A stretch of DNA of 40,829 nt, from sequence record NC_028822.1. The stretch is one strand, 5' to 3'. Origin of the DNA: Escherichia phage P483. The notes beneath the pieces are model-generated. The model ran no database searches and was not told where the DNA came from. It saw only the letters and a list, made by a program, of their open reading frames with translations. How positions within the stretch are numbered: the stretch's first letter is position 1; each line of letters opens with the position of its first letter. This document shows positions 2,905-40,829 of the stretch, piece by piece. The position numbers were made by a program, and so were the translations under genes.

Positions 2905-2953
2905 CTGTAGCCTCCTTTCGGTTAGGTATAATAGGAGGGAAGCTGTGAGAGCC

Positions 2954-2976
2954 TTCCCCAATAGTGAGTCGTATTG
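2954..2976 (-). promoter_or_regulatory. Phage RNAP promoter phi17
   Basis: Minus strand reads CAATACGACTCACTATTGGGGAA. Confidence 0.85.
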
Positions 2977-2977
2977 T

Positions 2978-10817: not shown

Positions 10818-10840
10818 CTTCCCAATAGTGAGTCGTATTG
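10818..10840 (-). promoter_or_regulatory. Phage RNAP promoter phi13
   Basis: Minus strand reads CAATACGACTCACTATTGGGAAG. Confidence 0.85.
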
Positions 10841-13256: not shown

Positions 13257-13281
13257 TAGAGACCTCCTTAAATTATTATCA

Positions 13282-13872
13282 TTAACGAGACAGCAGACCA
13301 CCAGTGAAGGCATCACCATCAAGCATGTTGAAGTTACCGAAGTCCAGTTCGTACTCGGCACACTGCATCTTCGCTTCCTGTTCCTCTTCAGCCAACACAG
13401 CGTCAATCTCAGGTGCACCGAAGAACCTGTTGTTAAACTGACGGGCAGCTTTAGTGACAATCCAGGAGCGGAAGCATTCAGGCATCTCGTAGAACTCTCT
13501 CAGTTTAATGATGGTCACAGTGATAGGGTTCTGGAACACATCGGTTCCTGTAGTCCGGTCATAGACGTAACCACCACGGTTAACGTAAGCGGTCGCGCCT
13601 CCTTCAGACAGTACGGACAGGTAGTCAGACATATAGGGAATCAATCCGTTGAACACATCAGGCAGCAACTGTTGGCCTTCCTCAATGTTGAACGTCCAGC
13701 CCTTCGACTGAATCTGACGGTTAATCTTATTGAGAACTCGACGTGCGTTAGCGACATCGGCGTTAGCATCACCTTCCAAAGTGGAGACTGGCGGTTCACC
13801 GATAGAGGACAAGATGTCATTGACCGCAGCTAACTCTTCCCCAGTCTCTAGGGTTGTTTCATAGGAACGCAT
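13282..13872 (-). CDS. 11: Tail tubular protein A (T7 gp11-like)
   Basis: 196 aa, same length as T7 gp11 and highly similar as recalled. Confidence 0.9.
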
Positions 13873-15258: not shown

Positions 15259-15281
15259 TCTCCCAATAGTGAGTCGTATTA
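15259..15281 (-). promoter_or_regulatory. Phage RNAP promoter phi10
   Basis: Minus strand reads TAATACGACTCACTATTGGGAGA. Confidence 0.9.
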
Positions 15282-16249: not shown

Positions 16250-16272
16250 TCTCCCATTAGTGAGTCGTATTA
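16250..16272 (-). promoter_or_regulatory. Phage RNAP promoter phi9
   Basis: Minus strand reads TAATACGACTCACTAATGGGAGA. Confidence 0.85.
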
Positions 16273-18859: not shown

Positions 18860-18882
18860 CCTCTCAATAGTGAGTCGTATTG
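18860..18882 (-). promoter_or_regulatory. Phage RNAP promoter phi6.5
   Basis: Minus strand reads CAATACGACTCACTATTGAGAGG. Confidence 0.8.
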
Positions 18883-20396: not shown

Positions 20397-20624
20397 TTAA
20401 AGATAGTGATTCTTGACAACCTGTTTTACTTCAGGTTCATCAGTTGATTTAGACTCGTTGACGAACTCAAGTGCCTCACTGTAATAAGTGAATGACACCT
20501 TACGTTCTTCCGGGTAGTCCTTAAAGTGGCACCAGAACGGGAACCACTCATGACGGAACTGCGGGTAATATAAAGTCTCACCTGTAGTCATTCGGACTTC
20601 TCGAATCCTGTATCGCCATGCCAT
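20397..20624 (-). CDS. Hypothetical protein (T7 gene 5.3 position)
   Basis: 75 aa ORF with SD GGAGG, between DNA polymerase and 5.5. Confidence 0.6.
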   Translation of the reverse strand: MAWRYRIREVRMTTGETLYYPQFRHEWFPFWCHFKDYPEERKVSFTYYSEALEFVNESKSTDEPEVKQVVKNHYL

Positions 20625-23189: not shown

Positions 23190-23212
23190 TCTCCCATTAG
23201 TGAGTTGAATAG
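23190..23212 (-). promoter_or_regulatory. Phage RNAP promoter phi4.7 (divergent class II type)
   Basis: Minus strand reads CTATTCAACTCACTAATGGGAGA; A instead of G at -11. Confidence 0.65.
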
Positions 23213-23801: not shown

Positions 23802-23845
23802 TGTGATTCTCCTTAAGCGGATTGATAAGTGGGAACAGAGTGTCT

Positions 23846-23868
23846 GTCCCCTTAGTGAGTTGTATAGA
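23846..23868 (-). promoter_or_regulatory. Phage RNAP promoter phi4.3 (divergent class II type)
   Basis: Minus strand reads TCTATACAACTCACTAAGGGGAC. Confidence 0.6.
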
Positions 23869-25732: not shown

Positions 25733-25755
25733 TCCTCCCATAGTGAGTTCTATTA
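25733..25755 (-). promoter_or_regulatory. Phage RNAP promoter upstream of gene 4 (T7 phi3.8 position)
   Basis: Minus strand reads TAATAGAACTCACTATGGGAGGA. Confidence 0.7.
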
Positions 25756-27407: not shown

Positions 27408-27430
27408 TCTCCCAATAGTGAGTCCTATTA
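27408..27430 (-). promoter_or_regulatory. Phage RNAP promoter phi2.5
   Basis: Minus strand reads TAATAGGACTCACTATTGGGAGA. Confidence 0.85.
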
Positions 27431-27706: not shown

Positions 27707-27880
27707 TTAAGAATCGTCATATTCAATCACCTCGTTACGTGAAAGATATACTTCTTCGTCATGCTTGTTCATGATCTTATAGAACTTACCGTCCCATGTT
27801 CGCTCTGCAAAGAATATGTCATGGCGTTTAACTAGTGCCATCATATCATCTTCACCCACATACTCGACCTTAATAATCAT
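27707..27880 (-). CDS. Hypothetical protein (T7 gene 1.8 position)
   Basis: ATG at 27880 overlapping the end of the upstream gene; 57 aa. Confidence 0.5.
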   Translation of the reverse strand: MIIKVEYVGEDDMMALVKRHDIFFAERTWDGKFYKIMNKHDEEVYLSRNEVIEYDDS

Positions 27881-28163
27881 AGCACTTGTCCTTATGTTTC
27901 TCGAACAGTTCACCATAGAACCCAGCTTTCGCCATGTCCTTCTCTAAGAATGCCAGTTCAGATTTCTTACCAGCACGTAGGCGATACTTAAGGATGTTCC
28001 CGTAGCAATACCCTTTGAACTGTTCACGGGTCATCGACCGGGCAATCACTTCGATAGCCTCAATGTCGTCAAACAACATATAGTGGCTCGGAGTCCGAAC
28101 GCCCTCTATATCTTGTGGTTGTTTGTGGTCTTTCTCCCACGCATCACCATCTAGCAGTCCCAT
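27870..28163 (-). CDS. Hypothetical protein (T7 gene 1.7 position)
   Basis: 97 aa, SD AAGGAGG; start overlaps the stop of the upstream gene (TAATG). Confidence 0.6.
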   Translation of the reverse strand: MGLLDGDAWEKDHKQPQDIEGVRTPSHYMLFDDIEAIEVIARSMTREQFKGYCYGNILKYRLRAGKKSELAFLEKDMAKAGFYGELFEKHKDKCYDY

Positions 28164-28541: not shown

Positions 28542-28564
28542 TTCCTCCATAGTGAGTCGTATAG
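28542..28564 (-). promoter_or_regulatory. Phage RNAP promoter phi1.5
   Basis: Minus strand reads CTATACGACTCACTATGGAGGAA. Confidence 0.75.
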
Positions 28565-28604: not shown

Positions 28605-29093
28605 TTATGATAGTGCTTCATCACGGGCGGCTATCGCCTCGTCAAGCGTTTTGTGGTAGGAAACATGCCTAGCACCATTCCTCCTGATACAGACAGTATA
28701 TAGTTCCCTGTCATTCCTCTTAGAGATGTGCTTCAATCCCAGCTTGTTGGTCGTGAATGTACCTTTGTTCTGGTTGTTAACAGCACAAGTAACCACCCTA
28801 AGATTCTCTATGAGGTTGTTACCTTTGTTTCGGTCTATGTGGTCAACTTGTAGTCCTTCAGGTATTGCACCATTTATTAGTTCCCAAATTACCCGATGGA
28901 CTCGTAGGTGATGTGCCACTCCGTTGACCCTCACACATAATACCCAATAGCCAGCCTTATTCAAGTATCCTACTGGCTTACCGTTGGGCTTGGAGAGGCC
29001 ACTAGGAGCCTCCCTGTTTACTTTAAATCTTTTCTTTAGGATTGTCCTCAGTTCCTCGGAAGCAGGAGAATGAGGGATGCCGCAATGACCCAT
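28605..29093 (-). CDS. HNH homing endonuclease with AP2-like DNA-binding domain
   Basis: 162 aa; HNH motif region VDHIDRNKGNNLIENLRVVTCAVNNQNKG and AP2-like YTVCIRRNGARHVSYHKTLDEAIAARDEA; start overlaps the last 70 nt of ligase. Confidence 0.75.
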   Translation of the reverse strand: MGHCGIPHSPASEELRTILKKRFKVNREAPSGLSKPNGKPVGYLNKAGYWVLCVRVNGVAHHLRVHRVIWELINGAIPEGLQVDHIDRNKGNNLIENLRVVTCAVNNQNKGTFTTNKLGLKHISKRNDRELYTVCIRRNGARHVSYHKTLDEAIAARDEALS

Positions 29094-30105
29094 CGCTTGT
29101 TTCCTCCATGTAGTTTACTTGACACTGCCAGCCCTGATAAGGGTTAACCCAATCACTCTCAGTTCTTACATTTAGGATGTTTGTAGCATCAAAAACGTTA
29201 TTGGTAAACTCATCCATCAACGCTTGGCTAATGTTGTTGGCAGAGACTACGCGACCGGACTCAAGGAGAACCTCGAAGCCAATCACTTTACCTTCGTTAG
29301 CCAGACCCGGAGTACCCCAATTGAGTCCCACAATGACACCATCAGCTTCACACTCAGGCTTCATCTTCCAGTAGCCAGACTTCTTGCCACGCATGTAGAA
29401 GCCCAGAGGGTCTTTGACTACCAGACCTTCATGACCATCGGCACGGGCTTTCTCATAGAGGGCATTCAGTTCTACCATATCGTAGACCTCGTAGCTCTCA
29501 GAGATGTCCCATTCGATTTCAGGGAAGTGCTCACGCAGCACTGGCAGCATAGCCTTAACGTGCTCGCGCATCAGTAGGTTCATCACTTCGTAGGTCTCAC
29601 CGGAGACCATAGAGTCAAACGGCATGACACCATAGAGGATAACCTTTAGTTTCTCAGTGTCTAGGTGGAATGGAATCTTACCATCAACCGTGAAGTCACC
29701 ATTCTTGTTCTTCTTGAGAGGGACACCAGCCACATCATTGTGAGCCAGTAGGTTGTCCGTCTTGACCCACTTGGTACGCAGGAGGCCAGACCCTGTGTTA
29801 AAGTCCACGCCTTTGACCATCAGTTCACCATCAAGCATGAAGCCATCAGGGAAGATACAGCGGTCGTCTTTCAGGAGCATCTCCCAGCGCTTGTCGTACC
29901 CGTTGAGATGTGACAGAGCAGGAATCTCTTTAGAGACACGAGAGAGCCACAATGAGTCAGCCGTATTGTCAACTACAATGTTACCACGAACGCCATCATA
30001 TTTAATGTCAGCAATCAGGTAGCCAGCTTTGTCGAGAGCTTTATTAACGGCAGACTCAACGAATGATACAGCTTTATGTGGATTTGTCTTGAATGTGATT
30101 TCCAT
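29023..30105 (-). CDS. 1.3: ATP-dependent DNA ligase (T7 gp1.3-like)
   Basis: Start at internal ATG 30105 with SD TAGGAGT; KYDGVRG adenylation motif; 360 aa; strong similarity to T7 ligase as recalled. Confidence 0.95.
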   Translation of the reverse strand: MEITFKTNPHKAVSFVESAVNKALDKAGYLIADIKYDGVRGNIVVDNTADSLWLSRVSKEIPALSHLNGYDKRWEMLLKDDRCIFPDGFMLDGELMVKGVDFNTGSGLLRTKWVKTDNLLAHNDVAGVPLKKNKNGDFTVDGKIPFHLDTEKLKVILYGVMPFDSMVSGETYEVMNLLMREHVKAMLPVLREHFPEIEWDISESYEVYDMVELNALYEKARADGHEGLVVKDPLGFYMRGKKSGYWKMKPECEADGVIVGLNWGTPGLANEGKVIGFEVLLESGRVVSANNISQALMDEFTNNVFDATNILNVRTESDWVNPYQGWQCQVNYMEETSDGSLRHPSFSCFRGTEDNPKEKI

Positions 30106-30196: not shown

Positions 30197-30219
30197 TCTC
30201 GCAATAGTGAGTCGTATTA
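30197..30219 (-). promoter_or_regulatory. Phage RNAP promoter phi1.3
   Basis: Minus strand reads TAATACGACTCACTATTGCGAGA. Confidence 0.8.
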
Positions 30220-30720: not shown

Positions 30721-30743
30721 TTTCCCATTAGTGAGTCGTATTG
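30721..30743 (-). promoter_or_regulatory. Phage RNAP promoter phi1.1
   Basis: Minus strand reads CAATACGACTCACTAATGGGAAA. Confidence 0.8.
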
Positions 30744-31285
30744 TCTGCAACCTTACGTGCAATCTCAATGCGACCAGCTACGTCTTTCTTATAATAGGTG
30801 AACTCTTTGCGCTCACCATCAGTGCACGTCTGTGTCAGCAGGTAGCGGTCCGACTGTTCTTTCCAGTGCAAACATGTAACCTCTTTGCCGCAAGACCCTA
30901 TACCTAGCTTGAACTCAGTGCGCTTCCATCCAGCATCCGGGATGTGAGCAGTAAACTTGATAGACGTGATGTCACTGTGAGTGTACTCACGGATGGTACT
31001 CTTTGCCTCTTTAAGTTCCTTGCGGTACTCCACTGCCTCACCACGTAGACGCTCAATGAGTTCTCGTTGGTTCGACATGTCATATCGTTGTTCGAACTCT
31101 AAGGTACGGATTCGACCAGCTAGTTCCTGCTTCTCTCGCCATCCATCTTCAAGTCTCTCTTTGAGTGCATGAGAGTTCTTCTCTTCTTTGATTAGCTTAG
31201 TGAGAAATACATTTGAACGATTATAGTATGTTGCTGCAAGAATGGTTGATACGAGAACACCTACTGAAGTGATGAAAGTAAACAT
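30728..31285 (-). CDS. Hypothetical membrane-anchored coiled-coil protein (T3 gene 1.05 slot; no T7 counterpart)
   Basis: 185 aa; N-terminal TM helix MFTFITSVGVLVSTILAATYY, central charged coiled coil, C-terminal Cys-containing region; SD AAGAGGAAA; preceded by its own phage promoter. Confidence 0.7.
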   Translation of the reverse strand: MFTFITSVGVLVSTILAATYYNRSNVFLTKLIKEEKNSHALKERLEDGWREKQELAGRIRTLEFEQRYDMSNQRELIERLRGEAVEYRKELKEAKSTIREYTHSDITSIKFTAHIPDAGWKRTEFKLGIGSCGKEVTCLHWKEQSDRYLLTQTCTDGERKEFTYYKKDVAGRIEIARKVADNTTH

Positions 31286-31344: not shown

Positions 31345-31367
31345 TCTCCCAATAGTGAGTCGTATTA
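31345..31367 (-). promoter_or_regulatory. Phage RNAP promoter immediately downstream of gene 1 (T7 phi1.1A equivalent)
   Basis: Minus strand reads TAATACGACTCACTATTGGGAGA; the transcript starts with a 9-bp 5' stem-loop GGGAGACCC-UU-GGGUUUCCC. Confidence 0.9.
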
Positions 31368-31375
31368 GATTACCA

Positions 31376-34027
31376 TCAGGCAAAAGCGAAGTCTGACTTG
31401 AGGATTTCTTGGAGGTCGAGAGCACCTTTAGCTGGCATCTCAGGCATCTTGTCAAGCTGTGACTCGTGCAACTGCTCGGCAAATTGCTCATAGAAGTCTG
31501 CGAGTACATCGTTTTCTTCGTAAGTGTTGACCATCGTTTCACGCACTGCTTTAAACAGGTTGCCAGCATCAGCAGGGATAGTACCAAATGAGTCGTGAAT
31601 AAGTGCAAAGGATTCCACACCGTATACCTCATTGGAGCGCACTACAGTCATTCGCAGGTGGCTACCGTCCATTGAGTGAACAAAGTTAGGTGCGATGCCT
31701 GACTCCTGCTTACGTGCGTCAATTCCGCTATCCTTGTTGGTGTTCACGGTAGGCTGCAAACGAATCTGCCCCAAGAACATCAGGTTCAAACGAGTCTGTA
31801 CTGGCTTCTTGTATTCCTGCCAGACCGGGAAGCCATCAGGAGTTACCCAATGTACCGCGCAGCGCTTGCGGAGAACCTCTTTAGTCTTCTTGTCCTTGAC
31901 TTCAGCAGCTAGGAGTTTAGCCGCAGACTTCAGCCAGTTCATTGCTTCAACCGCAGCGACCACAGTCACTGTTACCGATTCCCAAATCAGTTTAGCCATA
32001 TAGCCAGCCGCTTGGTTCGGTTGAGTGAACATCAAGCCTTTACCATCGTCGATAGCTGGCTGAATGGTGTCCTCTAGCACTTGGTCACGGAAGCCGTACT
32101 CCTTGGACCCGTAAGCCAACGTCATGACCGAACGCTTAGTGACCTTGCGAGTCACACCGTAGGCCAGCCACTGACCAGCTAACTCTTTCGTTCCCAGCTT
32201 GAGCTTCTCAGTGATTTCACCAGTGTCCTTGTTTGTCACTGTTTCCACTTCGTTATCAGTGCCGTTGATTACCGCTTCGCGGAGCATCTCGTTCACACGT
32301 TCGGCAACGATGCGGTAGATGTCCTGTACTTCCTTGCTTGGCAGCAGGTTAACAGCGCGTCCACCTACTTCATCACGAAGCATTGCAGAGAAGTGTTGAA
32401 TACCAGAGCAAGAGCCATCGAACGCCAGCGGCAGAGAGCAGTTGTAGTTCATACCGTGGTGTTGCACACCTGCATACTCAAAGCAGAATGCGAGGAAGCA
32501 GAACGGAGAGTCTTGTTCAGCCCACCAAGTGTTAGCAATAGGGTCAGCCGCAACGCTCATGATGTTCTCGTGGTTGTCCTCAATGAACTTGATGCGTTCT
32601 GCAAAGTCCACCTTGTCCACACCAGCAGTGTTTGCACCGTGAATCTTCAGCCAGTAGTATCCATCAACACCGATTGGTTTACCTTTAGCGAGCGTTAACA
32701 GACCCTTGGTCATGTCGTTGCCTTGCGGGTTAAACATCGGTACAGCGTAGACACGACCGCGCCAGTCCATGTTCATAGGGAACCAGATAGCTTTAAACTG
32801 TGCGAACTTGTTGGCTTGCCCTAACATGAACTCCATGCTCATACGACGAGACACGCGAGCCTTCTCCTTGCGGTAGATTGCGGAGGCCGCTTTCTTCCAT
32901 GCTTTGAGTGCCGCTTCGTTCGTGTCGATGTCTTCAGGTTTAACCGGAAGTTCACCACGTTCGAGAGCAGGTACATCTTCAACCGGGCAATGCTTCCAGT
33001 TCACAATCTCGTTGACCACTGCCAGAACCTTCTTGTTAATCTTCCAAGGAGTATTCTGTGCGATGTTAACCGCCTTGTAAACTTCAGGCATATGCACGTC
33101 GTTGTAACGCTCAAGTCCCTTCTTGGAACCAGTGCGAACCAGAGAGAGAGGCTTGCGACCAGCAGCCCAATAGCCACCACCAACCGGAGAAGTCCAAGGC
33201 TTCGGAGGGACCACACAAGGTTGATACATTGGAGCGATTGCAGCCAGTGCACCAGCACGTTTAGATAACAGGTCAACGTATTGTTCGGTTAACTGGATGT
33301 ACTCACCATCCTTCTCAACGTTACCAGCAAACGGTCGGTGTAACTCAACGAGACCAGTAGACCCAATGAGCAGTTCCAACATACGTACACCAACGTGGAT
33401 TGCTTCTTCAGGTGTCCATGTGGTCCACTTGGTTTGCAGTTGACCAGCATCTAACATCTTGCCTTCTACTGCTTGCATGAATGCCTTCTTGTAGACGATA
33501 CCTACGCGCTTGTTTAGTGCTTCCTGTACGTGATTCTTAAAGTGCTTCGCTTCTTCGTCACGAATGCGACCGAAACGCAGTTCATCTTCAATGCTGCGAC
33601 CAATCTTAGTTGCGACCGCTTGCAGGTTGGTGTATTCCTCTTTGGTTAAACAAGCCAGTGTGACCTTCAGTGTGATGAAAGCAGCCGCTTCAGGTGCAAC
33701 CTTCTGTACCAGATTATAGGCCACTGGACGCTTACCGCGCTTAGATTCCACTTCAGTGAACCAAGTGTTCCACGCCTCGATAAACTTCGGTGCGAGGGAT
33801 GACAGGAGAGGTTTAGCCACTGCGTTGTCACCGAACTCACCCGCTTTGATTTGACGCTCCATTGCCTTAAGGAAACGCTTCTCGCCCTCAGTGTGCGCTT
33901 CGTGTTCTAACTCAAGCTGAGTAGCAGCAAGCTGTGCGCCGTAATGGTCAGCCAGAATGTTGTACGGCTGGATTGCGTTAGCGATGTCAGAGAAGTCATT
34001 CTTTGGTGCATTGATTACGTTAGTCAT
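31376..34027 (-). CDS. 1: DNA-directed RNA polymerase, single subunit (T7 gp1-like)
   Basis: 883 aa, identical in length to T7 RNAP; long stretches match as recalled, including the specificity-loop region RKRCAVHWVTPDGFPVWQEYKKP and QPTVNTNKDSGIDARKQESGIAPNFVHS. Confidence 0.97.
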   Translation of the reverse strand: MTNVINAPKNDFSDIANAIQPYNILADHYGAQLAATQLELEHEAHTEGEKRFLKAMERQIKAGEFGDNAVAKPLLSSLAPKFIEAWNTWFTEVESKRGKRPVAYNLVQKVAPEAAAFITLKVTLACLTKEEYTNLQAVATKIGRSIEDELRFGRIRDEEAKHFKNHVQEALNKRVGIVYKKAFMQAVEGKMLDAGQLQTKWTTWTPEEAIHVGVRMLELLIGSTGLVELHRPFAGNVEKDGEYIQLTEQYVDLLSKRAGALAAIAPMYQPCVVPPKPWTSPVGGGYWAAGRKPLSLVRTGSKKGLERYNDVHMPEVYKAVNIAQNTPWKINKKVLAVVNEIVNWKHCPVEDVPALERGELPVKPEDIDTNEAALKAWKKAASAIYRKEKARVSRRMSMEFMLGQANKFAQFKAIWFPMNMDWRGRVYAVPMFNPQGNDMTKGLLTLAKGKPIGVDGYYWLKIHGANTAGVDKVDFAERIKFIEDNHENIMSVAADPIANTWWAEQDSPFCFLAFCFEYAGVQHHGMNYNCSLPLAFDGSCSGIQHFSAMLRDEVGGRAVNLLPSKEVQDIYRIVAERVNEMLREAVINGTDNEVETVTNKDTGEITEKLKLGTKELAGQWLAYGVTRKVTKRSVMTLAYGSKEYGFRDQVLEDTIQPAIDDGKGLMFTQPNQAAGYMAKLIWESVTVTVVAAVEAMNWLKSAAKLLAAEVKDKKTKEVLRKRCAVHWVTPDGFPVWQEYKKPVQTRLNLMFLGQIRLQPTVNTNKDSGIDARKQESGIAPNFVHSMDGSHLRMTVVRSNEVYGVESFALIHDSFGTIPADAGNLFKAVRETMVNTYEENDVLADFYEQFAEQLHESQLDKMPEMPAKGALDLQEILKSDFAFA

Positions 34028-34100: not shown

Positions 34101-35198
34101 TCAGCCCATGAACAATACGTCCATCATTTTGTCAATCATCAGTGGTGCGCCAGCTTGGATAGCCAGACCGTCAGCCACTTGCCACTTGAAGCCGTTCACT
34201 TGGTCAATCTTGCGGACCGTTGCGTTACCATTACGCAGCCAGAAGTCATGCCATGCAGACCCCATGAGCATCTCAGCACGGCGTTCGTTGCGCTCAATCA
34301 CACCGCGTTCCCTACGGATTGCCATAAAGTGTAAGCGGTCACGTTCAGCCACCTTGGCACGTAACTTACGGTTACGCTTGCGGCGTTTCATGTTGGCTTT
34401 CTTGTTCATCCAGTAAGTGCCATTAGGGTCACGCTTGGCCTTGCGGTTGCGGCAACGTTCAATCATACGTTCTTGCGCTACAGCCTCGACCTCGGCCAGC
34501 AGTGCTTCAGGGTCCAGAGGAAAACCGTCCTCACGTTCACGGTCATGTGAGAAACTCACCGGGTCAGTGATGTACGGAACATCGTTATCGTCGAACATAA
34601 TGTTCCCACTGTGCATGTCGAAGGATGCAATGCCTTTGAAGAACTCACGAATCATTTTGCAGGTTTCGATGAACTCGTAGTCACCCGGTGCAAAGTCGCT
34701 TGCGTCATGGCAATCCGACTCCACAAAGTAACGTGCGAGGTCAGCGTATACCTCATGGTCATAATTATTGCGGTCGCAACTGTTCAAGTGGTCCAATACA
34801 ACCGTATAGCAACCTGCATGACGTGCTACGTGATAGACGTTAGGGATACCCGCTCGGCCTTGGTGCATCCTACAGAATGCAGTGTATGCAGCGCCTGAAT
34901 CCTCTTTCTTAAAGCCAACCTTGATGACTCGACCCGGTAACAATTCGTGCGAGTAGGCCGCGCTGAAGTGACCATTGCCTAACATGCGGAATCCTGCATC
35001 ACGCATCAGTGCGCCCAAGGTGTTCCACCAGTCCTGATACTCCAAGCCGTTCGAGCCATCGGTGTCGTTTCCGTCACATGTTTCACCGTTCACGATGTCA
35101 GCAGCCAGTTCGACCAAAAGAGGCTGGCGCTTGTCCAAGTCGCTAATCGGGAGAGACTTGATGATTGCCAGACGTGCCTGAATGTCGGTGTAATTCAT
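34101..35198 (-). CDS. 0.7: Serine/threonine protein kinase, host shut-off (T7 gp0.7-like)
   Basis: 365 aa; GNGHFSAAYSH, VIKVGFKKEDSGAAYTAFCRM, FDMHSGNIMF, VPYITDPVSFS match T7 gp0.7 as recalled. Confidence 0.9.
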   Translation of the reverse strand: MNYTDIQARLAIIKSLPISDLDKRQPLLVELAADIVNGETCDGNDTDGSNGLEYQDWWNTLGALMRDAGFRMLGNGHFSAAYSHELLPGRVIKVGFKKEDSGAAYTAFCRMHQGRAGIPNVYHVARHAGCYTVVLDHLNSCDRNNYDHEVYADLARYFVESDCHDASDFAPGDYEFIETCKMIREFFKGIASFDMHSGNIMFDDNDVPYITDPVSFSHDREREDGFPLDPEALLAEVEAVAQERMIERCRNRKAKRDPNGTYWMNKKANMKRRKRNRKLRAKVAERDRLHFMAIRRERGVIERNERRAEMLMGSAWHDFWLRNGNATVRKIDQVNGFKWQVADGLAIQAGAPLMIDKMMDVLFMG

Positions 35199-35232: not shown

Positions 35233-35433
35233 TTATTTGTGCGTTGCGATGTAAAAGATTCCCACCTTGTTAGCCTTAAAGCGTCCATTGCGTTCACGGA
35301 CAGTGAAGCGCGGCAGGAAGCCATACTTTAGGTGCGAGAAGTTAGCTTTGTGTACCTTGAGACCCTTGCGGAAGTCTCGAAGGAAGTACAGCGCGATTAG
35401 AGTGTAAACGAGTGCAACAAGTGTATATAACAT
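35233..35433 (-). CDS. Hypothetical small membrane protein (early region)
   Basis: 66 aa with N-terminal hydrophobic helix; weak SD. Confidence 0.45.
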   Translation of the reverse strand: MLYTLVALVYTLIALYFLRDFRKGLKVHKANFSHLKYGFLPRFTVRERNGRFKANKVGIFYIATHK

Positions 35434-35466: not shown

Positions 35467-35667
35467 TCAGTCATTCCAGCCCGCACATGTTGCTTGGTGT
35501 ATCACGCAGGCTTGGTATTCTTCTTGTGCCAAAACCTCGTTCACCCAATGTGTGACCTGTTTACCGTATCGCACAACGTAGGTGCTACCCATTGCCCCGT
35601 GATCATACTCTCGTAGTGTTACAGTGCATTGGCCTTTGATTTTAGATGTTGCCAGAAGTTTACTCAT
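35467..35667 (-). CDS. Hypothetical early protein
   Basis: First in-frame ATG at 35667 (MSKLLATSKIKGQ...); 66 aa; the ORF-track start at 35712 is a GTG. Confidence 0.5.
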   Translation of the reverse strand: MSKLLATSKIKGQCTVTLREYDHGAMGSTYVVRYGKQVTHWVNEVLAQEEYQACVIHQATCAGWND

Positions 35668-35740: not shown

Positions 35741-36199
35741 TTACTGTACTTGCCAGCGGCGACCGAACTCATCAATCGTGAAGCAACCTTGAAGCGGTGC
35801 GCCTTTAGGCACTTCTTGGAAGCTACCCGGTAAACGTTCAGCTTTATAGCCGTCAATGCCTTTAGCATACACTAAGCCAGCCGTGTGAGTCTGTGACTTA
35901 TAGACCAGTACGCAGTCCTGTTCAAACTCATTACATGCCAGACGTGCGACCGCTATTGCTTGAGCTTTGTTGGCACAGCGTACACGAACAGTCAGTTCCT
36001 CAGTCGGTGCACTTGCGATAGCCTCCCGATAACAACCAGTCAAATCTGTAGACTCAACGCTACCGTATTCAAGCGGTGCATTACGCAGTGAGTTAACCAT
36101 GTGACGATGACGACTCATATTTACTTCGTCGCAGAGGTTAGAGCGGAACGCTGATACCAGTACATAGAATACGTTTGCAGGTTCGTTAGTGTAAATCAT
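35741..36199 (-). CDS. 0.3: S-adenosyl-L-methionine hydrolase/lyase (T3 gp0.3 SAMase-like anti-restriction protein)
   Basis: 152 aa; MIYTNEPANVFYVLVSAFRSNLCDEVNMSRHRHMV...GCFTIDEFGRRWQVQ is near-identical to T3 SAMase as recalled. Confidence 0.9.
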   Translation of the reverse strand: MIYTNEPANVFYVLVSAFRSNLCDEVNMSRHRHMVNSLRNAPLEYGSVESTDLTGCYREAIASAPTEELTVRVRCANKAQAIAVARLACNEFEQDCVLVYKSQTHTAGLVYAKGIDGYKAERLPGSFQEVPKGAPLQGCFTIDEFGRRWQVQ

Positions 36200-36465
36200 G
36201 ATAGTGCCTCATTATGTGTGTGTTAGTGATTATCATTAAAGAGCACACGTTGTTACTTAATGTATGCCCTTGAGTTAATCGCTATCGGCGTTATCACTGT
36301 TTAAACGCTTGTGCGTTCACGTCATCCCCGTAGTTCTTGACTACCTGTCTCGCAGTAAGGGAATTACACGACCAAATTGTTAAAGAGCTTTAAGTGCAGG
36401 TTTGTTAGCACCGAGTCACTTTCAGTGTGTGACCTCACAAGAACGTTATGTAGTGCATGTGGTAC

Positions 36466-36494
36466 AGCTTACAGTTTTTAAAGGAGACTGTCAA
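36466..36494 (-). promoter_or_regulatory. Sigma70-type early promoter (A3-like)
   Basis: Minus strand -35 TTGACA (36489-36494), 17-bp spacer, -10 TAAGCT (36466-36471). Confidence 0.55.
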
Positions 36495-36613
36495 CCTGTT
36501 ATTCTTTTATGCGATGAGTGACCGAATTCGACTCATGGCTAGTGCCTTATCCGTTGGCGGGTCACGGGCAGGTTTCTCGGTTCCTATCCCTACACCCTTA
36601 CTGCATGTCGTGC

Positions 36614-36643
36614 ATCTTACATCTTATCTTTACTGCTTGTCAA
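36614..36643 (-). promoter_or_regulatory. Sigma70-type early promoter (A2-like)
   Basis: Minus strand -35 TTGACA (36638-36643), 18-bp spacer, -10 TAAGAT (36614-36619). Confidence 0.55.
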
Positions 36644-36705
36644 CACCTTTCTTACCGTGACACCTCATGTTGTTTCAGAGGGTAGTCGTTGTGTTGACGT
36701 TGTGT

Positions 36706-36734
36706 AGCTTACTGCTTTGTTACCGTTGAGTCAA
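36706..36734 (-). promoter_or_regulatory. Sigma70-type early promoter
   Basis: Minus strand -35 TTGACT (36729-36734), 17-bp spacer, -10 TAAGCT (36706-36711). Confidence 0.5.
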
Positions 36735-36840
36735 CCACTTTCATATGTCTGGTTGATGACTACTTGAGACTCTTCAGCTTTACTAGATAACTCGCGGTAT
36801 TGTCTAGTAGTTGGTAGCGTTGTGTCTCTCAACGGTTGCT

Positions 36841-36869
36841 ATAGTCTCATAAGCCATTATCAATGTCAA
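36841..36869 (-). promoter_or_regulatory. Sigma70-type early promoter (A1-like)
   Basis: Minus strand -35 TTGACA (36864-36869), 17-bp spacer, -10 GACTAT (36841-36846). Confidence 0.6.
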
Positions 36870-36961
36870 CACTCAATCTTAAAGAATCTTAAAGCCTCTC
36901 TTTAAGTTGTCTTATAGTCTCTTATAGTGGACATAAAGAGAGAATGACCATTATTAGTGTT

Positions 36962-36979
36962 TCTCTCTCTCTCTCTCTC
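36962..36979 (-). repeat. (TC)9 / (GA)9 dinucleotide microsatellite at the phiOL transcription start
   Basis: tctctctctctctctctc read directly; the transcript would begin GAGAGAGAGAGAGAGAGA. Confidence 0.9.
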
Positions 36980-36996
36980 AATAGTGAGTCATATTA
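36974..36996 (-). promoter_or_regulatory. Phage RNAP promoter phiOL
   Basis: Minus strand reads TAATATGACTCACTATTGAGAGA. Confidence 0.75.
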
Positions 36997-37135
36997 AAGG
37001 CTATTGACTCTAAGCCATCTTTAAGGCACTATAAACACTCAGTCGATTCTACTTGTCTCTCTCATTACTCAGAGACTGCTAAACAGAGTAAGATAGTGAT
37101 TCCCCTTTGTGACGAAGCCTATTGTCACTGATAAA

Positions 37136-37210
37136 CATAAGGCACTGACTGAAGGTTAACATAAGGATAGGCATGGTCATAAGGTGATAACTCAAGGTGA
37201 TGACATAAGG
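37136..37210 (-). repeat. Four CCTTATG heptamer repeats between the predicted terminal repeat and phiOL (analogous to T7 CCTAAAG repeats)
   Basis: cataagg at 37136, 37160, 37178, 37204; three more at 37464, 37490, 37568 on the other side of the predicted end. Confidence 0.6.
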
Positions 37211-37412
37211 AGATACTCAATGGTCACTTACAGATAGGGACACAGAGACACTAAGTTATCCACAGAGTTACCAACAGTCTCACCTAAAGTTATCCACACA
37301 GCCTCTAACCTAGAGTTATCCACAGAGTTATCCATAGGTTATCCACAAGTTATCCACAAGTTATCTACAGGGTTACCCACAGGGGGGAAACCACTATGTA
37401 TGAACTATGAGA
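37190..37412 (-). repeat. Predicted terminal direct repeat with the left physical genome end at about 37412 (boundaries approximate)
   Basis: Minus strand from 37412 reads TCTCATAGTTCATACATAGTGG...CCCCCC, like the T3/T7 left end (TCTCA...) as recalled; GTGTCTCTGTGTCCCTATCTGT (37225-37250) matches the end of the T7 terminal repeat. Confidence 0.4.
37246..37381 (+). repeat. Array of eight DnaA-box-like 9-mers (five exact TTATCCACA) in the predicted terminal-repeat region
   Basis: TTATCCACA at 37246, 37290, 37316, 37339, 37350; TTATCCATA at 37328; TTATCTACA at 37361; TTACCCACA at 37373; all same orientation. Confidence 0.8.
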
Positions 37413-37981: not shown

Positions 37982-38004
37982 CTTCCCAATAGTGAGTCGT
38001 ATTA
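37982..38004 (-). promoter_or_regulatory. Phage RNAP promoter phiOR
   Basis: Minus strand reads TAATACGACTCACTATTGGGAAG, downstream of the terminase gene. Confidence 0.85.
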
Positions 38005-38091: not shown

Positions 38092-39849
38092 TTACCACTC
38101 AATGAAGCAGCTAGAATCTCCATCGTCCTCGTAGTAGATGTCCACGCCACCAACATCGTAGCTATGGATAGCATCACCACCAACGGTCTGTTTCTCCATG
38201 TGGTGTTCAAGGAACTCAAGGGTCATCTCTTCTTCACCTACACGGCTGTCCACAAGCATCCCTTCACGCAGGAACTCGATACCCAATGCGATAGCATCAA
38301 GTCGGTCATCGTGTGCCACAGCGCCTCGCTCACGGGTCATACGGGTCATCTGATAGAACGCACTGTAGCGAACATCATGTTTCCCATCAAGGTCACGAGC
38401 AGTCTGGTAGTCCTCACGGATAACCTCATCACGAATGACCAGCTTGTGCGCACCCATCAACGGTTCGATAGTATCGCAGATTCGCATCTCCTTCATGCCT
38501 TTAGCACGGATTTCCTCTAAGGCACACTTGTGATGCTTCAGGAGAATCGGAGAGAAAATCTTACCGAACATACCGTCACCGAAGTTGGACTCGTGGACTA
38601 CTGTCTGTACATTCCACTGCTTGGCCTTCTTAGCGAGCTTCTCTAGGGTAGCATCATCGTAACCACCACGGAACCCACCGACTTCCATCAAGTAGATATA
38701 ACCGTTAAGTGAGTAGAGGACTGCGTACCCGGTCTCATCCTTACCACGACCACTTGGGTCAATGACCAGAATCTTAGACTGATACTCAGCGGTACGAGAA
38801 GAGCACGTATGGAACGCATGGATGTCATCACCCTTCAGACCAACGTTAGGGAGTTCCTCATTGCGGTTCTGACGGTTCGGCAACCACTGGTAAGACAATG
38901 GGGCACGTTCAGGGTCCACAGCGCACACGATAGCGTCACGGAGTCGTAGCGGGTACTTCTCGGCATCACTAAGGTTCGGGTTAAGCATGAACTGAAGCGT
39001 GTAGCCAGCTTTGCCATATTCGAGTTCACGTTCACGGAGGTCATCCATGTCGAATCGAATAGGGTCAGTAGGTTGACCACGAAGTAACTCGAAGCCTTCA
39101 TCGTATTCAGCCTTAAGCATCGGAGCCAAGCGGTCCCCATAGTAGAGAGCCTCAGCATCATTACGTGGATACTGTGCAGGCCAGATTACCGTACTGTACC
39201 CTTTGTTATCCTCAAGTTCCTTGTAGAGCGTCATCTCGGTTTGAGGTGTGCCAAGGTAGATAACACGAGAGGTAGGCAGCGGCTTAAGTAATGCAGCGAA
39301 CTCAGTTACCAACGTCCAGAGCTTCTCACGAGCAGAACTCGTAGAGCTATTACCGGGAACCTCAACGTCATCTGCGATAATAATGTCAGCACGGCTACCA
39401 GTTAACTGACCAGTAATACCTACAGACTTCACAGAGGGTGAGTGGTCGGGTTTCGCCAAGCCAACGTCAAAGCTAATAACAGAGTCACGCTGTCCCGGTC
39501 GAGGTTTCAACTCAGAGAGGAACGGAAGGAGGTCGATGATGTTCTTAATGAAGATGGAGTTAGCGTCCGCACGTTCCTTAGAGGCAGACACGATGAGAAC
39601 CTTAAGTTGAGGGTCACGCCATAAGACCCACACGACGAACGCACAGGTGATAAAGGACTTGCCGATACCACGGAACGCCTGAAGGATAAACTTCTTGTGG
39701 TCGCCGTTAGCGAGTGTACGTGCCATATCAATCTGACACTTGGTTGGTTTAGGTAAGTTCAGAGCCTTCCATAAGACGAACAGGAAGGCCACGAAGTCAC
39801 CCTTAAGTTGCGCCACGATGAGCGCATTCTTGTTTGCTTGAGTAGACAT
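38092..39849 (-). CDS. 19: Terminase large subunit / DNA maturase B (T7 gp19-like)
   Basis: 585 aa (T7 gp19 is 586 aa); Walker-type ATPase and nuclease regions; SD TAGGAGG. Confidence 0.95.
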
Positions 39850-39864
39850 TGTGGCCTCCTATTG

Positions 39865-40422
39865 TTACTCGGCAGGTTTCTCTAAGGCAGCAATGCGCTT
39901 CTCAAGAGCCTTGATAGTGTCGGTCTTAGATACAGCCCCGTCGATGTTACTAGGTTGGAACATAACGGAAACGCTCTTCCCTTCGCTATCCACGAACTGT
40001 GTACCAAATTCACTATCAGACGCAGAAAGCGTTGCACTAACTAAGGAAGCCATACCACCTTCAGGTTCAGGGTCAGCACCAGTCCACTCTTTGTATACGT
40101 CGATTCGAACCATACCGAGTCGCTCAGTGCTTTGCTCATTCAGGAACACCGTCATGAACCCGCTACCCGGTTTAGACTCGACGGAGCCACCCCAAGTGGA
40201 CATAAGGGTCTCGAACGTAGCGTGTTGCTCAGTGGTGCCATCACTCAGTTGGATAACGTATTCAACCTTAGAGTAGCCCTCAACCTTAACCATCTCCGAA
40301 GCTGGGATGTCGATACGCCCAACACGAAGACCAATATTGTTGCGGTCGTACACATCACGACTGTCTGGTGAGCGACCATTGATGGTCCATAGTGTGCGGG
40401 TTCTTGAGTTTGTAGTAGCCAT
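39865..40422 (-). CDS. Hypothetical late protein inserted between Rz/Rz1 and terminase large subunit (no T7/T3 counterpart recognised)
   Basis: 185 aa ORF, ATG 40422 preceded by SD GAAGGAGAAG at optimal spacing; starts 3 nt after the Rz stop and ends 16 nt before the gene 19 start; no TM segment, no Cys, C-terminal amphipathic helix. Confidence 0.75.
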   Translation of the reverse strand: MATTNSRTRTLWTINGRSPDSRDVYDRNNIGLRVGRIDIPASEMVKVEGYSKVEYVIQLSDGTTEQHATFETLMSTWGGSVESKPGSGFMTVFLNEQSTERLGMVRIDVYKEWTGADPEPEGGMASLVSATLSASDSEFGTQFVDSEGKSVSVMFQPSNIDGAVSKTDTIKALEKRIAALEKPAE

Positions 40423-40424
40423 AA

Positions 40425-40829
40425 TTACTTCTCCTTCTTAGCTTGCATTTCAGTTATTGTATTTTGGAGCGCCTTAATCCACGCATCCCCTCTTTGAGTT
40501 ACTCCGATAAGACGCTTACTAAACTCTTCGTCAAGTTCGGCTCGACCATCAACGAGGCATCCACCATTAGCTTGGAGTTCTCGTGTGGTGGCTGATAGTT
40601 TGACGCGCAAGCGCTTACCATCGTTACGCAAATCATTAATGACCCTATCAGTGCTGCCCTCCAGCGCCGCAAGGTCTTCTTGGTATTGTCGTGAGATTTC
40701 GTTGATAGCAGCTTGTTTATCCTCAGTCGCCTTAACTTTCTTAACGTACTCATTGTGCACCTCCTGTTCCCATTTAGTGTTAGCTTTGTCATAGCCGTGG
40801 TTATACGCAAGGGTAACACCCAAGGCAAA
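40425..40829 (-). CDS. 18.5: i-spanin Rz (T7 gp18.5-like), 3' part; the 5' end lies beyond the window end (equivalent to 1..265)
   Basis: Continuous with the copy at the window start; resembles T7 gp18.5 as recalled. Confidence 0.8.
   Translation of the reverse strand, partial: FALGVTLAYNHGYDKANTKWEQEVHNEYVKKVKATEDKQAAINEISRQYQEDLAALEGSTDRVINDLRNDGKRLRVKLSATTRELQANGGCLVDGRAELDEEFSKRLIGVTQRGDAWIKALQNTITEMQAKKEK
40499..40753 (-). CDS. 18.7: o-spanin Rz1 (T7 gp18.7-like), embedded in Rz in the +1 frame
   Basis: ATG 40753 with SD GGAGGTG; MSTLRKLRRLRINK...LIGSLMICVTMVSACAS (lipoprotein signal and Cys) ...SLMVEPNLT resembles T7 gp18.7 as recalled. Confidence 0.8.
   Translation of the reverse strand: MSTLRKLRRLRINKLLSTKSHDNTKKTLRRWRAALIGSLMICVTMVSACASNYQPPHENSKLMVDASLMVEPNLTKSLVSVLSE
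40604..40829. repeat. 226-bp exact duplication of window positions 1-226 (circular-permutation overlap, not a biological repeat)
   Basis: Direct comparison of window start and end. Confidence 0.95.

What the first reader, a model, noticed from the sequence alone, without database searches (positions are those of the whole stretch)
35741..36199. Mosaic early region: T3-type SAMase in a phage with T7-type RNA polymerase and promoters
Gene 0.3 encodes a 152-aa protein near-identical, as recalled, to T3 SAM hydrolase/lyase rather than the T7 Ocr DNA mimic, and a gene occupies the T3 1.05 slot. The RNA polymerase specificity region and all promoters are T7-type, not T3-type (CCCTCACTAAAG). The genome therefore combines T3-like anti-restriction with T7-like transcription specificity, which implies recombination between lineages or an intermediate lineage.
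Basis: partly seen in the sequence, partly recalled or inferred. Interest (0 to 1): 0.45.

Follow-up and report, generated by a model that had tools for sequence, protein, structure and literature searches.

The report
Ordinary Berlinvirus phage with SAM lyase
The window is a complete T7-like phage genome of the known genus Berlinvirus, in which a T3-like SAM-degrading anti-restriction gene alongside T7-like promoters is the usual, already published state rather than a T3 x T7 hybrid.

Summary
Window 35741-36199 (minus strand) encodes a 152-aa S-adenosylmethionine lyase, 90.8% identical to T3 SAMase. A gene carrying the T3 1.05 domain sits after the RNA polymerase gene. The polymerase has T7-type promoter-contact residues. 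All 15 phage promoters match T7 from -17 to -2, and none is T3-type.

The genome is not a T3/T7 recombinant. It is a Berlinvirus (BA14/P694/A7/Kvp1 group), a third lineage equidistant from T7 and T3 (about 48% nucleotide identity x coverage to each, against 80-85% to Berlinvirus genomes).

SAMase synonymous divergence from T3 (pS 0.60) lies inside the core-gene range (0.56-0.78). Its high protein identity therefore reflects purifying selection, not recent transfer. SAMase at gp0.3 in Berlinvirus and other non-Teseptimavirus genera, and "T3-like" early genes in this lineage, are already in the literature. Phages pO103 and D226 have the same early-region layout.

Real mosaicism exists, but inside the genus. 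The 0.3 locus carries several deep SAMase alleles, an optional T7-like Ocr cassette (absent here), or neither gene. The promoters never have A at -1, and the polymerase's intercalating hairpin differs from T7's.

Low interest; already known.

The parts
35741..36199 (-). Gene 0.3: S-adenosylmethionine lyase (SAMase), 152 aa, the first early gene
   Evidence: ORF. PF23780 at 142 bits. Full-length match to PDB 7OCK T3 SAMase, E 9e-92. E67/E68, G55, Y57, Q103 and the internal M28 are conserved. 97.4% identical to the A7, P694, pO103 and P151 proteins.
35467..35667 (-). Gene 0.45-like small early ORF (66 aa from the ATG; an alternative GTG start lies at 35712)
   Evidence: PHROG 6500, E 1.8e-44. 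86% identical to phiYeO3-12 gp0.45, 97% to P694 and 100% to nasanit; absent from T3, T7, BA14, A7 and Berlin.
35233..35433 (-). Gene 0.6-like small early ORF (66 aa)
   Evidence: PHROG 2385, E 2.7e-29. 74% identical to T3, 83% to BA14 and 94% to P694.
34101..35198 (-). Gene 0.7: Ser/Thr protein kinase with host shut-off domain (365 aa)
   Evidence: About 50% identical to both T7 and T3 gp0.7, and 78-88% to Berlinvirus gp0.7. A homologue in the Berlinvirus phage JSS1 (JSS1_004) is a characterised anti-defence kinase.
31376..34027 (-). Gene 1: single-subunit RNA polymerase (883 aa) with T7-type promoter-contact residues
   Evidence: PF00940 and PF14700. 76% identical to T7, 75% to T3 and 96-99% to Berlinvirus. 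R96, K98, T745, R746, N748, R756 and Q758 match T7; F755I, E222G and a divergent intercalating hairpin do not.
30728..31285 (-). Gene in the 1.05 slot (185 aa): T3 1.05 domain plus an N-terminal extension
   Evidence: PF25755 over residues 106-176, E 1.2e-29. 95-96% identical to BA14 and nasanit; 47% identical over 37% of its length to T3 1.05; absent from A7, P694, Berlin and T7.
37982..38004 (-). Phage promoter phiOR equivalent, TAATACGACTCACTATTGGGAAG
   Evidence: Identical to the curated BA14 phiOR sequence.
36974..36996 (-). Phage promoter phiOL equivalent, TAATATGACTCACTATTGAGAGA
   Evidence: Its position relative to the left end matches BA14 phiOL.
31345..31367 (-). Phage promoter phi1.05, exact Berlinvirus consensus
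30721..30743 (-). Phage promoter phi1.1
30197..30219 (-). Phage promoter phi1.3
28542..28564 (-). Phage promoter phi1.5-like
27408..27430 (-). Phage promoter phi2.5
25733..25755 (-). Phage promoter (phi3.8 position)
23845..23867 (-). Phage promoter phi4.3
23190..23212 (-). Phage promoter phi4.7
18860..18882 (-). Phage promoter phi6.5
16250..16272 (-). Phage promoter phi9
15259..15281 (-). Phage promoter phi10, exact consensus
10818..10840 (-). Phage promoter phi13
2954..2976 (-). Phage promoter phi17
36200..37412 (-). Left-end non-coding control region. The physical genome left end (TCTCATAGTTCATACA...) is at 37412. The direct terminal repeat, present once here, is at about 37235-37412. Host-RNA-polymerase early promoters lie upstream of gene 0.3.
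   Evidence: The left-end sequence matches the BA14 5' end. The terminal repeat was inferred from the overlap of both A7 record ends. The region is 88% identical to BA14 423-955, which carries four curated host promoters. One sigma-70-like site, TTGACA-18-TAAGAT at 36643-36614, coincides with the third of them, although the scan as a whole found no more sites than chance.
36252..36268 (-). Empty site where relative A7 carries a ~430-bp T7-like Ocr cassette
   Evidence: Window/A7 blastn: A7 39055-38621, which contains its Ocr gene, has no counterpart here; the flanks are collinear.

Best explanation
The window is a complete, circularly permuted genome of a lytic T7-like podovirus of the genus Berlinvirus, read on the minus strand. 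Its gene 0.3 is the lineage's own SAM lyase. It is inferred to be transcribed first, by host RNA polymerase from the left-end early promoters, as the DNA enters the cell. By homology to T3 SAMase, the enzyme cleaves S-adenosylmethionine to methylthioadenosine and homoserine lactone, and probably also binds the host SAM synthetase MetK. This starves SAM-dependent defences (type I restriction-modification, BREX) of their cofactor. Gene 0.7 kinase and gene 1 RNA polymerase follow. The polymerase then transcribes the middle and late genes from 15 promoters whose binding region (-17 to -5) is the same as T7's, because the recognition residues are the same as T7's. The pairing of a T3-like 0.3 with T7-like promoter recognition is a stable, genus-wide character of Berlinvirus, not the product of a T3 x T7 cross. 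The SAMase looks 'T3-like' at the protein level because it is under strong purifying selection. Shown here: the gene identities, the promoter set, the recognition residues, the phylogenetic placement and the divergence statistics. Inferred: the enzymatic activity, the expression timing and the actual promoter specificity.
For: The window's identity with Berlinvirus is seen along the whole genome. T7 and T3 are equidistant from it. For SAMase against T3, pS is 0.60, within the core resampling interval 0.56-0.78 (fraction at or below the observed value 0.107), while pN 0.073 lies below all 5000 core resamples. Every IMG/VR or GenBank relative with RNAP at least 83% identical carries the same specificity-loop sequence QTRLNLMFLGQIRLQP and promoters without A at -1, and 9 of about 13 informative ones carry a SAMase. 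The curated BA14 record annotates gp0.3, gp1.05 and the same promoter set. pO103 and D226 have a collinear early region, 93% identical over about 1450 nt, with SAMase and no Ocr. The functional residues of T3 SAMase are conserved. Literature: BASEL states that gp0.3 is Ocr in Teseptimavirus and a SAM hydrolase in all the other genera it tested. The Kvp1 paper reports T3-like Gp0.3, 0.6 and 0.7 with Berlin-like promoters. T3 SAMase is a lyase and overcomes BREX (abstract listed).
Against: Yersinia phage Berlin itself and several other members lack any SAMase. SAMase alleles within the genus are as divergent as between genera: pS is 0.54-0.58 against BA14 and nasanit, while the core is 0.15-0.36. 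Strict vertical descent of this particular allele therefore cannot be proven, and an old lateral acquisition from an unsampled genus is equally compatible. Synonymous sites against T3 are near saturation, so the test cannot distinguish 'as old as the genus split' from 'somewhat younger'. No activity, expression or cross-transcription data exist for this phage. A secondary citation of Mertens & Hausmann 1982 says the BA14 polymerase/promoter system is functionally distinct from T7's, so calling it 'T7-type specificity' rests on sequence alone.
Confidence: 0.85

Rival explanations
1. Recent recombinant: a T7-type backbone that recently acquired the T3 early region (0.3, 1.05) by recombination with a T3-group phage.
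For: The SAMase protein is 91% identical to T3, against 50-83% for the neighbouring and core proteins. A 1.05-domain gene is present, as in T3 but not T7. Such transfers do occur in the genus: nasanit's SAMase is 98.3% nucleotide-identical to phiYeO3-12's, with pS 0.076.
Against: The window's SAMase is only 80.6% nucleotide-identical to T3's, with pS 0.60, which is not different from the core. The backbone is not T7: it is 48% identity x coverage, with core proteins as far from T7 as from T3. The 1.05-slot gene is only 47% identical to T3 1.05 over 37% of its length. No 600-nt segment of the window is closer to T3 or T7 than to a Berlinvirus.
Confidence: 0.03
2. Old lateral acquisition: the window-type SAMase allele (shared with A7, P694, pO103, D226, P151 and others) entered a subset of Berlinviruses from another, possibly unsampled, Studiervirinae genus. 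It replaced or filled the 0.3 locus long enough ago for synonymous sites to saturate.
For: Three or four deep allele lineages coexist in one genus: the window type, the BA14 type, the T3/YeO3-12 type and a ~70% PYPS50 type. Pairwise pS between them is 0.54-0.62, while the core pS is 0.15-0.36. Some members have no SAMase. The locus demonstrably accepts cassettes, since Ocr occurs on either side of SAMase in A7 and in P694.
Against: No donor has been identified. The position, gene order and flanks are conserved across genera, which fits an ancestral gene with homologous allele exchange equally well. In the phage collection the window-type allele (at least 94% identity) was found only in Berlinvirus-like records.
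Confidence: 0.12
3. Assembly artefact: the early region was joined to the rest by a chimeric metagenomic assembly of two co-occurring T7-like phages.
For: The contig is circularly permuted, with identical 226-nt ends, which shows it is an assembler product. The best-matching reference changes along the genome.
Against: The whole early region is collinear, at 93% identity, with the isolate genomes D226 and pO103, and its flanks on both sides are Berlinvirus. The same patchwork pattern is seen between sequenced isolates of the genus.
Confidence: 0.01

Closest known systems
Escherichia phages pO103 (OR204651) and vB_Eco_D226 (MN080711), genus Berlinvirus
   Same: They have the same early-region layout (SAMase, small ORFs, 0.7 kinase, no Ocr). 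Their SAMase is 96-97% identical, and about 1450 nt are collinear at 93% identity.
   Different: They are about 7% diverged at the nucleotide level. The rest of the window matches other Berlinviruses (A7, P694, BA14, nasanit) better in different segments.
Shigella phage vB_ShiP-A7 (MK685668) and Escherichia phages P694 and P151
   Same: They carry the closest SAMase allele (97.4% amino-acid identity; A7 is 96.9% nucleotide-identical). A7 RNAP is 99% identical, and the replication genes have pS of 0.05-0.09.
   Different: They additionally carry an Ocr gene 92-97% identical to T7 Ocr, upstream of the SAMase in A7 and downstream of it in P694 and P151. The window has neither copy. A7 and P694 lack the 1.05-slot gene and have a very different gp12 (76-77% identical).
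Coliphage BA14 (EU734171), the curated reference for this group, and Kluyvera phage Kvp1
   Same: Same genus. Genes 0.3 and 1.05 and the same promoter family with T at -1 are annotated. gp1.05 is 95% identical and gp11/gp12 are 97-99% identical. The Kvp1 paper already notes T3-like Gp0.3, 0.6 and 0.7.
   Different: BA14 carries a different SAMase allele, 85% identical at the protein level with pS 0.54, against a core pS of 0.24.
Phage T3 gp0.3 SAMase / SAM lyase (PDB 7OCK, 8BB1)
   Same: Same family, length, genomic position and functional residues; 90.8% identical.
   Different: There are 14 substitutions, and synonymous sites are near saturation (pS 0.60). The host genome differs: the polymerase is only 75% identical, and T3 has D748 with a CCC promoter core.
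Phage T7 RNA polymerase/promoter system
   Same: The promoter consensus is identical from -17 to -2. Residues K95, R96, K98, T745, R746, N748, R756, Q758 and P759 are identical.
   Different: The polymerase is only 76% identical overall. Position -1 is T or G and never A. F755I, E222G and most of the intercalating hairpin differ. According to a secondary citation, BA14 cross-transcription experiments showed functional differences. T7 has Ocr rather than SAMase at 0.3.

Membership tests
S-AdoMet lyase family (Pfam PF23780; T3 SAMase) | Sequence matches the family profile above the curated threshold over the full domain | tested here: met
   142.2 bits against a cut-off of 28; residues 13-151 match profile positions 1-132 of 133.
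S-AdoMet lyase family (Pfam PF23780; T3 SAMase) | Full-length homology to the structurally solved enzyme | tested here: met
   Residues 1-152 align to 1-152 of 7OCK/8BB1 without gaps, E 9.3e-92.
S-AdoMet lyase family (Pfam PF23780; T3 SAMase) | Substrate-binding residues: T3 E68 (with E67), the Gly and Tyr equivalent to Svi3-3 G56 and Y58, and the Gln equivalent to Q104 | tested here: met
   PTEE (E67/E68), TGCY (G55/Y57) and KSQTH (Q103) are unchanged in the alignment. The roles of these residues come from PMC7877911.
S-AdoMet lyase family (Pfam PF23780; T3 SAMase) | Conversion of SAM to methylthioadenosine and homoserine lactone; anti-restriction and anti-BREX phenotype; binding of MetK | not testable with these tools
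   Needs an enzyme assay, delta-ilvA rescue, or plating of a 0.3 deletion mutant.
Genus Berlinvirus (Studiervirinae) | At least 70% nucleotide identity over the genome to members of the genus (the ICTV criterion as quoted in PMC13600099) | tested here: met
   Identity x coverage is 84.5% to BA14, 84.3% to nasanit, 82.3% to A7, 79.9% to P694 and 73.7% to Berlin, against 48% to T7 and T3.
Any single known Berlinvirus species | At least 95% nucleotide identity over the genome | tested here: not met
   The best of the five Berlinvirus genomes compared in full is 84.5%. The best database halves give 93% coverage x 93.0% identity and 88% x 92.0%. The window is therefore probably a further species of the genus.
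T7-type promoter specificity class | Promoter binding region (-17 to -5) with CGA at -12 to -10 | tested here: met
   In the 15 promoters, -12 is C in 12, -11 is G in 12 and -10 is A in all 15. The consensus equals T7 from -17 to -2.
T7-type promoter specificity class | Recognition residues N748 (D in T3), R746, R756 and Q758, and R96/K98 of the AT-rich recognition loop | tested here: met
   All are identical to T7, while T3 differs at 96, 98, 745 and 748. The roles of these residues come from PMC8874028.
T7-type promoter specificity class | T7 initiation region (A at -1) and T7-like intercalating hairpin | tested here: not met
   Position -1 is T in 12 and G in 3 of 15, against A in 16 of 17 T7 promoters. 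The hairpin reads HRPFAGNVEKDGEYIQ against HRQNAGVVGQDSETIE in T7.
T7-type promoter specificity class | Reciprocal transcription of T7 and own promoters in vitro | not testable with these tools
   Only a secondary statement is available: that BA14 cross-transcription differed from T7 and T3. The 1982 primary paper is not held.
   Gene 0.3 against T3 has pS 0.60, inside the core interval 0.56-0.78. No 600-nt segment has T3 or T7 as its best match.
Ocr DNA-mimic anti-restriction (T7 gp0.3) | An Ocr homologue is present | tested here: not met
   tblastn of T7 Ocr and of A7 Ocr against the window gave a best E of 7.7, while the same queries find 94-97% matches in A7 and P694.

The most novel reading that the evidence does not exclude
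Berlinvirus RNA polymerases may discriminate their own promoters from T7's through the melting and initiation region rather than through the binding region. The window's 15 promoters are identical to T7's consensus from -17 to -2, and every known base-contacting residue is T7's. Yet -1 is never A, the intercalating hairpin is extensively substituted, and a secondary citation reports that the BA14 system is functionally distinct from T7's. If true, this would be a natural orthogonal polymerase/promoter pair whose specificity determinant lies outside the classical -12 to -8 / N748 code.
Probability: 0.15. Interest if true: 0.45.

Novelty: already known. Interest (0 to 1): 0.1.

Why it matters
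The finding matters little as a discovery. It corrects an impression that comes from knowing only T3 and T7. With hundreds of Studiervirinae genomes available, SAMase at gp0.3 is the common state outside Teseptimavirus, and Berlinvirus phages combine it with T7-like promoter recognition as a matter of course.

The analysis does give a usable picture of the gp0.3 locus as an anti-defence swap site within one genus. Several deep SAMase alleles, an Ocr cassette on either side of the SAMase, or nothing at all can occupy it. There are also clear examples of recent intergeneric transfer in relatives (nasanit from a phiYeO3-12-like phage; A7 and P694 from a T7-like phage). This may interest those choosing or engineering therapeutic T7-like phages against hosts with type I restriction-modification or BREX.

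Tried and rejected
1. My first per-gene table was wrong. The locus files hold several records each, and my parser kept only the last hit for each query. I detected this because the SAMase-P694 identity disagreed, and I redid the table.
2. My first numbering of T7 RNAP residues was off by one, because the sequences came from tblastn alignments. I corrected it with the annotated CDS translations.
3. I rejected recent T3-to-window transfer of gene 0.3 on synonymous divergence.
4. I rejected the presence of an Ocr gene in the window.
5. The sigma-70 promoter and terminator scan of the left end gave no more sites than chance (4 found, 3.9 expected). Only one site coincides with a curated BA14 host promoter, so the host promoters are assigned by homology, not by the scan.
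6. The primary BA14 paper (Mertens & Hausmann 1982) is not held. Full-text searches for 'phage BA14' with 'SAMase', and for the promoter sequence itself, found nothing.
7. PMC12345140 (JSS1_004) turned out to concern the gp0.7 kinase, not gp0.3. PMC13029058 did not test a Berlinvirus polymerase.
8. I did not use the large protein-database searches, structure prediction or fold search, because a solved structure of a 91%-identical protein already exists.

Full report
WHAT THE WINDOW IS. The 40,829-nt window is a whole T7-like phage genome read on the minus strand and circularly permuted. Its first 226 nt are identical to its last 226 nt, which is an assembler overlap, so the unique length is 40,603 nt. 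The gene order on the minus strand is: terminase gene 19 (38092-39849), the non-coding left end, gene 0.3 (35741-36199), small early ORFs, gene 0.7 kinase (34101-35198), gene 1 RNA polymerase (31376-34027), and then the replication, structural and lysis genes down to position 1. The physical left end, TCTCATAGTTCATACA..., lies at window 37412 and matches the 5' end of phage BA14.

CHECK OF THE OBSERVATION.
- The ORF at 35741-36199 (minus strand) is 152 aa. It matches Pfam PF23780 S-AdoMet_lyase at 142 bits, against a cut-off of 28.
- It aligns without gaps to the solved T3 SAMase, PDB 7OCK/8BB1, with E 9e-92. It is 90.8% identical to T3 gp0.3.
- The residues shown or proposed to bind SAM are unchanged: T3 E67/E68, the Gly-x-Tyr motif and the Gln.
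- There is no Ocr gene anywhere in the window.
- A 185-aa ORF at 30728-31285 occupies the 1.05 slot. It carries the Pfam Phage_T3_1_05 domain in its C-terminal half (E 1.2e-29). It is only 47% identical to T3 1.05 over 37% of its length.
- With correct numbering, the polymerase has T7's K95, R96, K98, T745, R746, N748, R756, Q758 and P759. T3 has K96, R98, K745 and D748. The roles of these residues in T7/T3 discrimination are described in PMC8874028.
- Fifteen phage promoters, all on the coding strand, give the consensus TAATACGACTCACTATTGGGAGA. This equals the T7 consensus from -17 to -2.
- No site lies within three mismatches of the T3 promoter.

WHERE THE GENOME BELONGS.
- Megablast of both halves of the window finds the BA14 / P694 / A7 / PYPS50 / nasanit / 285P / FE44 group at 89-95% identity over 70-93% of the query. 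These records are classified as genus Berlinvirus.
- Gene by gene, core proteins are 92-99% identical to Berlinvirus genomes. They are equally distant from T7 and T3: gp1 76/75%, gp4 69/70%, gp5 73/73%, gp8 80/83%, gp10 78/80%, gp19 81/80%.
- Whole-genome identity x coverage is 48.2% to T7, 48.4% to T3, 49.2% to phiYeO3-12, 84.5% to BA14, 84.3% to nasanit, 82.3% to A7, 79.9% to P694 and 73.7% to Berlin.
- In 600-nt steps, no segment is closer to T3 or T7 than to a Berlinvirus. The best reference alternates among A7, P694, BA14 and nasanit.
- The backbone is therefore not T7-type. It is a third lineage that shares T7's promoter-recognition residues.
- Nothing reaches the 95% species threshold, so this is probably a further species of a well-populated genus.

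IS THE SAMASE A RECENT T3 IMPORT? The protein is an outlier: 91% identical to T3, while its neighbour gp0.7 is 50% and gp1 is 75%. To separate constraint from transfer, I compared synonymous and non-synonymous divergence (Nei-Gojobori proportions) with 12 core genes, about 6000 codons in all.
- Against T3, the SAMase has pS 0.60 and pN 0.073. The core has pS 0.67 and pN 0.198.
- Resampling 152 codons from the core 5000 times gives a 95% pS interval of 0.56-0.78, and 10.7% of resamples are at or below the observed value. It gives a pN interval of 0.146-0.252, and none of the 5000 resamples is as low as the observed value.
- Nucleotide identity to T3 is only 80.6%.
- The gene is thus about as old a divergence from T3's as the rest of the genome, and it is simply under strong purifying selection.
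- Two positive controls show what a real transfer looks like. The SAMase of the Berlinvirus nasanit is 98.3% nucleotide-identical to phiYeO3-12's, with pS 0.076. The Ocr of A7 is 93% nucleotide-identical to T7's, with pS 0.28. In both cases the core pS is about 0.67.

REAL MOSAICISM, BUT ELSEWHERE. Within the genus, the 0.3 locus is strikingly polymorphic.
- The window's allele differs from BA14's and nasanit's by pS 0.54-0.58, while the core differs by 0.24-0.27. All 5000 core resamples fall below the observed value.
- I took a census of early regions anchored on the polymerase gene (49 IMG/VR loci, many of which are the same genomes as GenBank isolates). Fourteen loci have a polymerase at least 83% identical to the window's. 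All 14 keep the loop QTRLNLMFLGQIRLQP, and none has A at -1.
Phage Berlin itself, compared separately, also has no SAMase.
- Among GenBank carriers of the window-type allele, P151 also has Ocr. pO103, D226, PZJ0206, SEqdws-315 and WW1 do not.
- pO103 and D226 are collinear with the window across the early region at 93% identity.
- Relative to A7, the window shows a clean absence of the ~430-bp Ocr cassette at about 36252-36268.
- Other loci with allele replacement inside the genus include ligase 1.3, gp12, gp11 and the 1.05-slot gene.

WHAT IS ALREADY PUBLISHED.
[quoted passage not shown] Two BASEL phages, CarlSpitteler and ErnstBeyeler, are among the window's best matches.
- The 2008 Kvp1 paper reports T3-like Gp0.3, 0.6 and 0.7 in a phage whose promoters are most like those of Berlin (PMC2579914).
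- The curated BA14 GenBank record annotates gp0.3, gp1.05 and the promoter set.
- The A7 paper lists both the SAM hydrolase and an antirestriction protein (PMC8427288).
[quoted passage not shown] I could not read the primary paper.
- SAMase homologues occur in 480 phage records and Ocr homologues in 572. Neither gene is diagnostic of T3 or T7.

HOW IT MOST LIKELY WORKS. This mechanism is inferred from homology and synteny; nothing was tested here.
- On entry, host RNA polymerase transcribes the left end. That region is 88% identical to the BA14 stretch that carries four curated host promoters, and one sigma-70-like site coincides with one of them.
- Gene 0.3, which has a GAGG ribosome-binding site, is the first product. 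By analogy with T3, its product is a SAM lyase yielding methylthioadenosine and homoserine lactone (PMC7877911).
- The solved 7OCK complex and the T3/BREX preprint (listed) indicate additional inhibition of SAM synthesis. That 7OCK contains the host SAM synthetase MetK is my recollection, not something shown.
- Removing SAM disables type I restriction and BREX. The gp0.7 kinase provides a second, broader anti-defence layer, as shown for the Berlinvirus phage JSS1.
- The phage polymerase then takes over from the 15 promoters.

VERDICT. The feature is already known and is shared at 93-97% identity with deposited, annotated genomes. Interest is low.

The only open thread with some novelty potential concerns promoter discrimination. 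The binding-region contacts and sequence are identical to T7's, yet the promoter consistently has T or G at -1, the intercalating hairpin is divergent, and there is a second-hand report that the BA14 system behaves differently from T7's. Discrimination might therefore lie in the melting and initiation region. I rate that at about 15% probability.

Noticed in passing
window 1-226 and 40604-40829: The first and last 226 nt are identical. This is a circular-assembly overlap inside the lysis gene region, not the phage's terminal repeat. The unique genome length is 40,603 nt.
   Followed up: yes
L005 (A7) 38640-38984; L004 (P694) 5698-6039; L059 (P151) 1842-2204; empty site in window ~36252-36268: Three close relatives carry an Ocr gene 92-97% identical to T7 Ocr next to their SAMase (upstream in A7, downstream in P694 and P151), although their core genes are only about 75% identical to T7. 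A7 Ocr against T7 Ocr has pS 0.28, which indicates a comparatively recent cassette transfer. The window lacks the gene. The P694 copy is annotated 'protein kinase'.
   Followed up: yes
L008 (nasanit) 5080-5538 vs L006 (phiYeO3-12) 1035-1493: The Berlinvirus nasanit has a SAMase 98.3% nucleotide-identical (pS 0.076, pN 0) to that of the Teetrevirus phiYeO3-12.
   Followed up: yes
all 15 promoters (e.g. window 31345-31367) and RNAP residues 230-245, 222 and 755 (gene 1, 31376-34027): Promoters never have A at -1 (T in 12, G in 3), against A in 16 of 17 T7 promoters. The polymerase's intercalating hairpin is extensively substituted, and the substitutions E222G and F755I are present. All of this is conserved across Berlinvirus relatives, and it may underlie the reported functional difference from T7.
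   Followed up: partly
window 28605-29093 (-): A 162-aa HNH endonuclease ORF (Pfam HNH_3, PHROG 99) overlaps the 3' end of the ligase gene. Among the eight reference genomes it matches only phiYeO3-12 (48% identity, 99% coverage; by position probably that phage's gene 1.45) and is absent from the five Berlinvirus genomes. It is probably a homing endonuclease insertion.
   Followed up: partly
window 4787-5311 (-), inside gp16 (ORF about 2978-7450): There is an Ala/Glu/Lys-rich insertion of about 175 aa, probably coiled coil, in internal virion protein gp16. It is absent from BA14, T7 and T3. Only A7 shares it, and A7's gp16 has a further ~154-aa insertion at the same place, apparently a second copy. 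The true gp16 start appears to be a non-ATG codon about 53 codons upstream of the first ATG at 7291.
   Followed up: partly
window 39865-40422 (-): A 185-aa ORF of unknown function (PHROG 20446) lies between the spanin gene and terminase gene 19. It is 95% identical in BA14 and nasanit, partly conserved in Berlin, and absent from A7, P694, T7 and T3.
   Followed up: no
window 880-3018 (-), especially 1201-1800: The C-terminal half of tail fibre gp17 diverges from all eight reference genomes, and the 600-nt segment 1201-1800 has no nucleotide match in any of them. This suggests a different receptor specificity from the nearest relatives.
   Followed up: no
window 29023-30105 (ligase 1.3), 10869-13319 (gp12), 13282-13872 (gp11): There are further allele replacements within the genus. 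Ligase is 88% identical to P694 but only 70-73% to the other Berlinviruses, about the same as to T3 (69%). gp12 is 97% identical to BA14 but 76-77% to A7 and P694. Gene 11 is 99.0% nucleotide-identical to BA14 (pS 0.03), while its neighbours have pS 0.2-0.3.
   Followed up: partly
annotations of hits (e.g. NC_048180, NC_028863, NC_003298): RefSeq re-annotations label the gp0.3 SAM lyase as 'SAM-dependent methyltransferase', and the single-subunit T7-like RNA polymerase as 'N4-like RNA polymerase'. Both labels are misleading, and the first could hide the anti-restriction function in automated surveys.
   Followed up: no
window 20397-20624 (-) and 27707-27916 (-): Two small accessory ORFs have a patchy distribution. 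The 75-aa ORF (PHROG 18049) is found only in A7 among the references, and the 69-aa ORF (PHROG 38524) only in A7 and P694.
   Followed up: no
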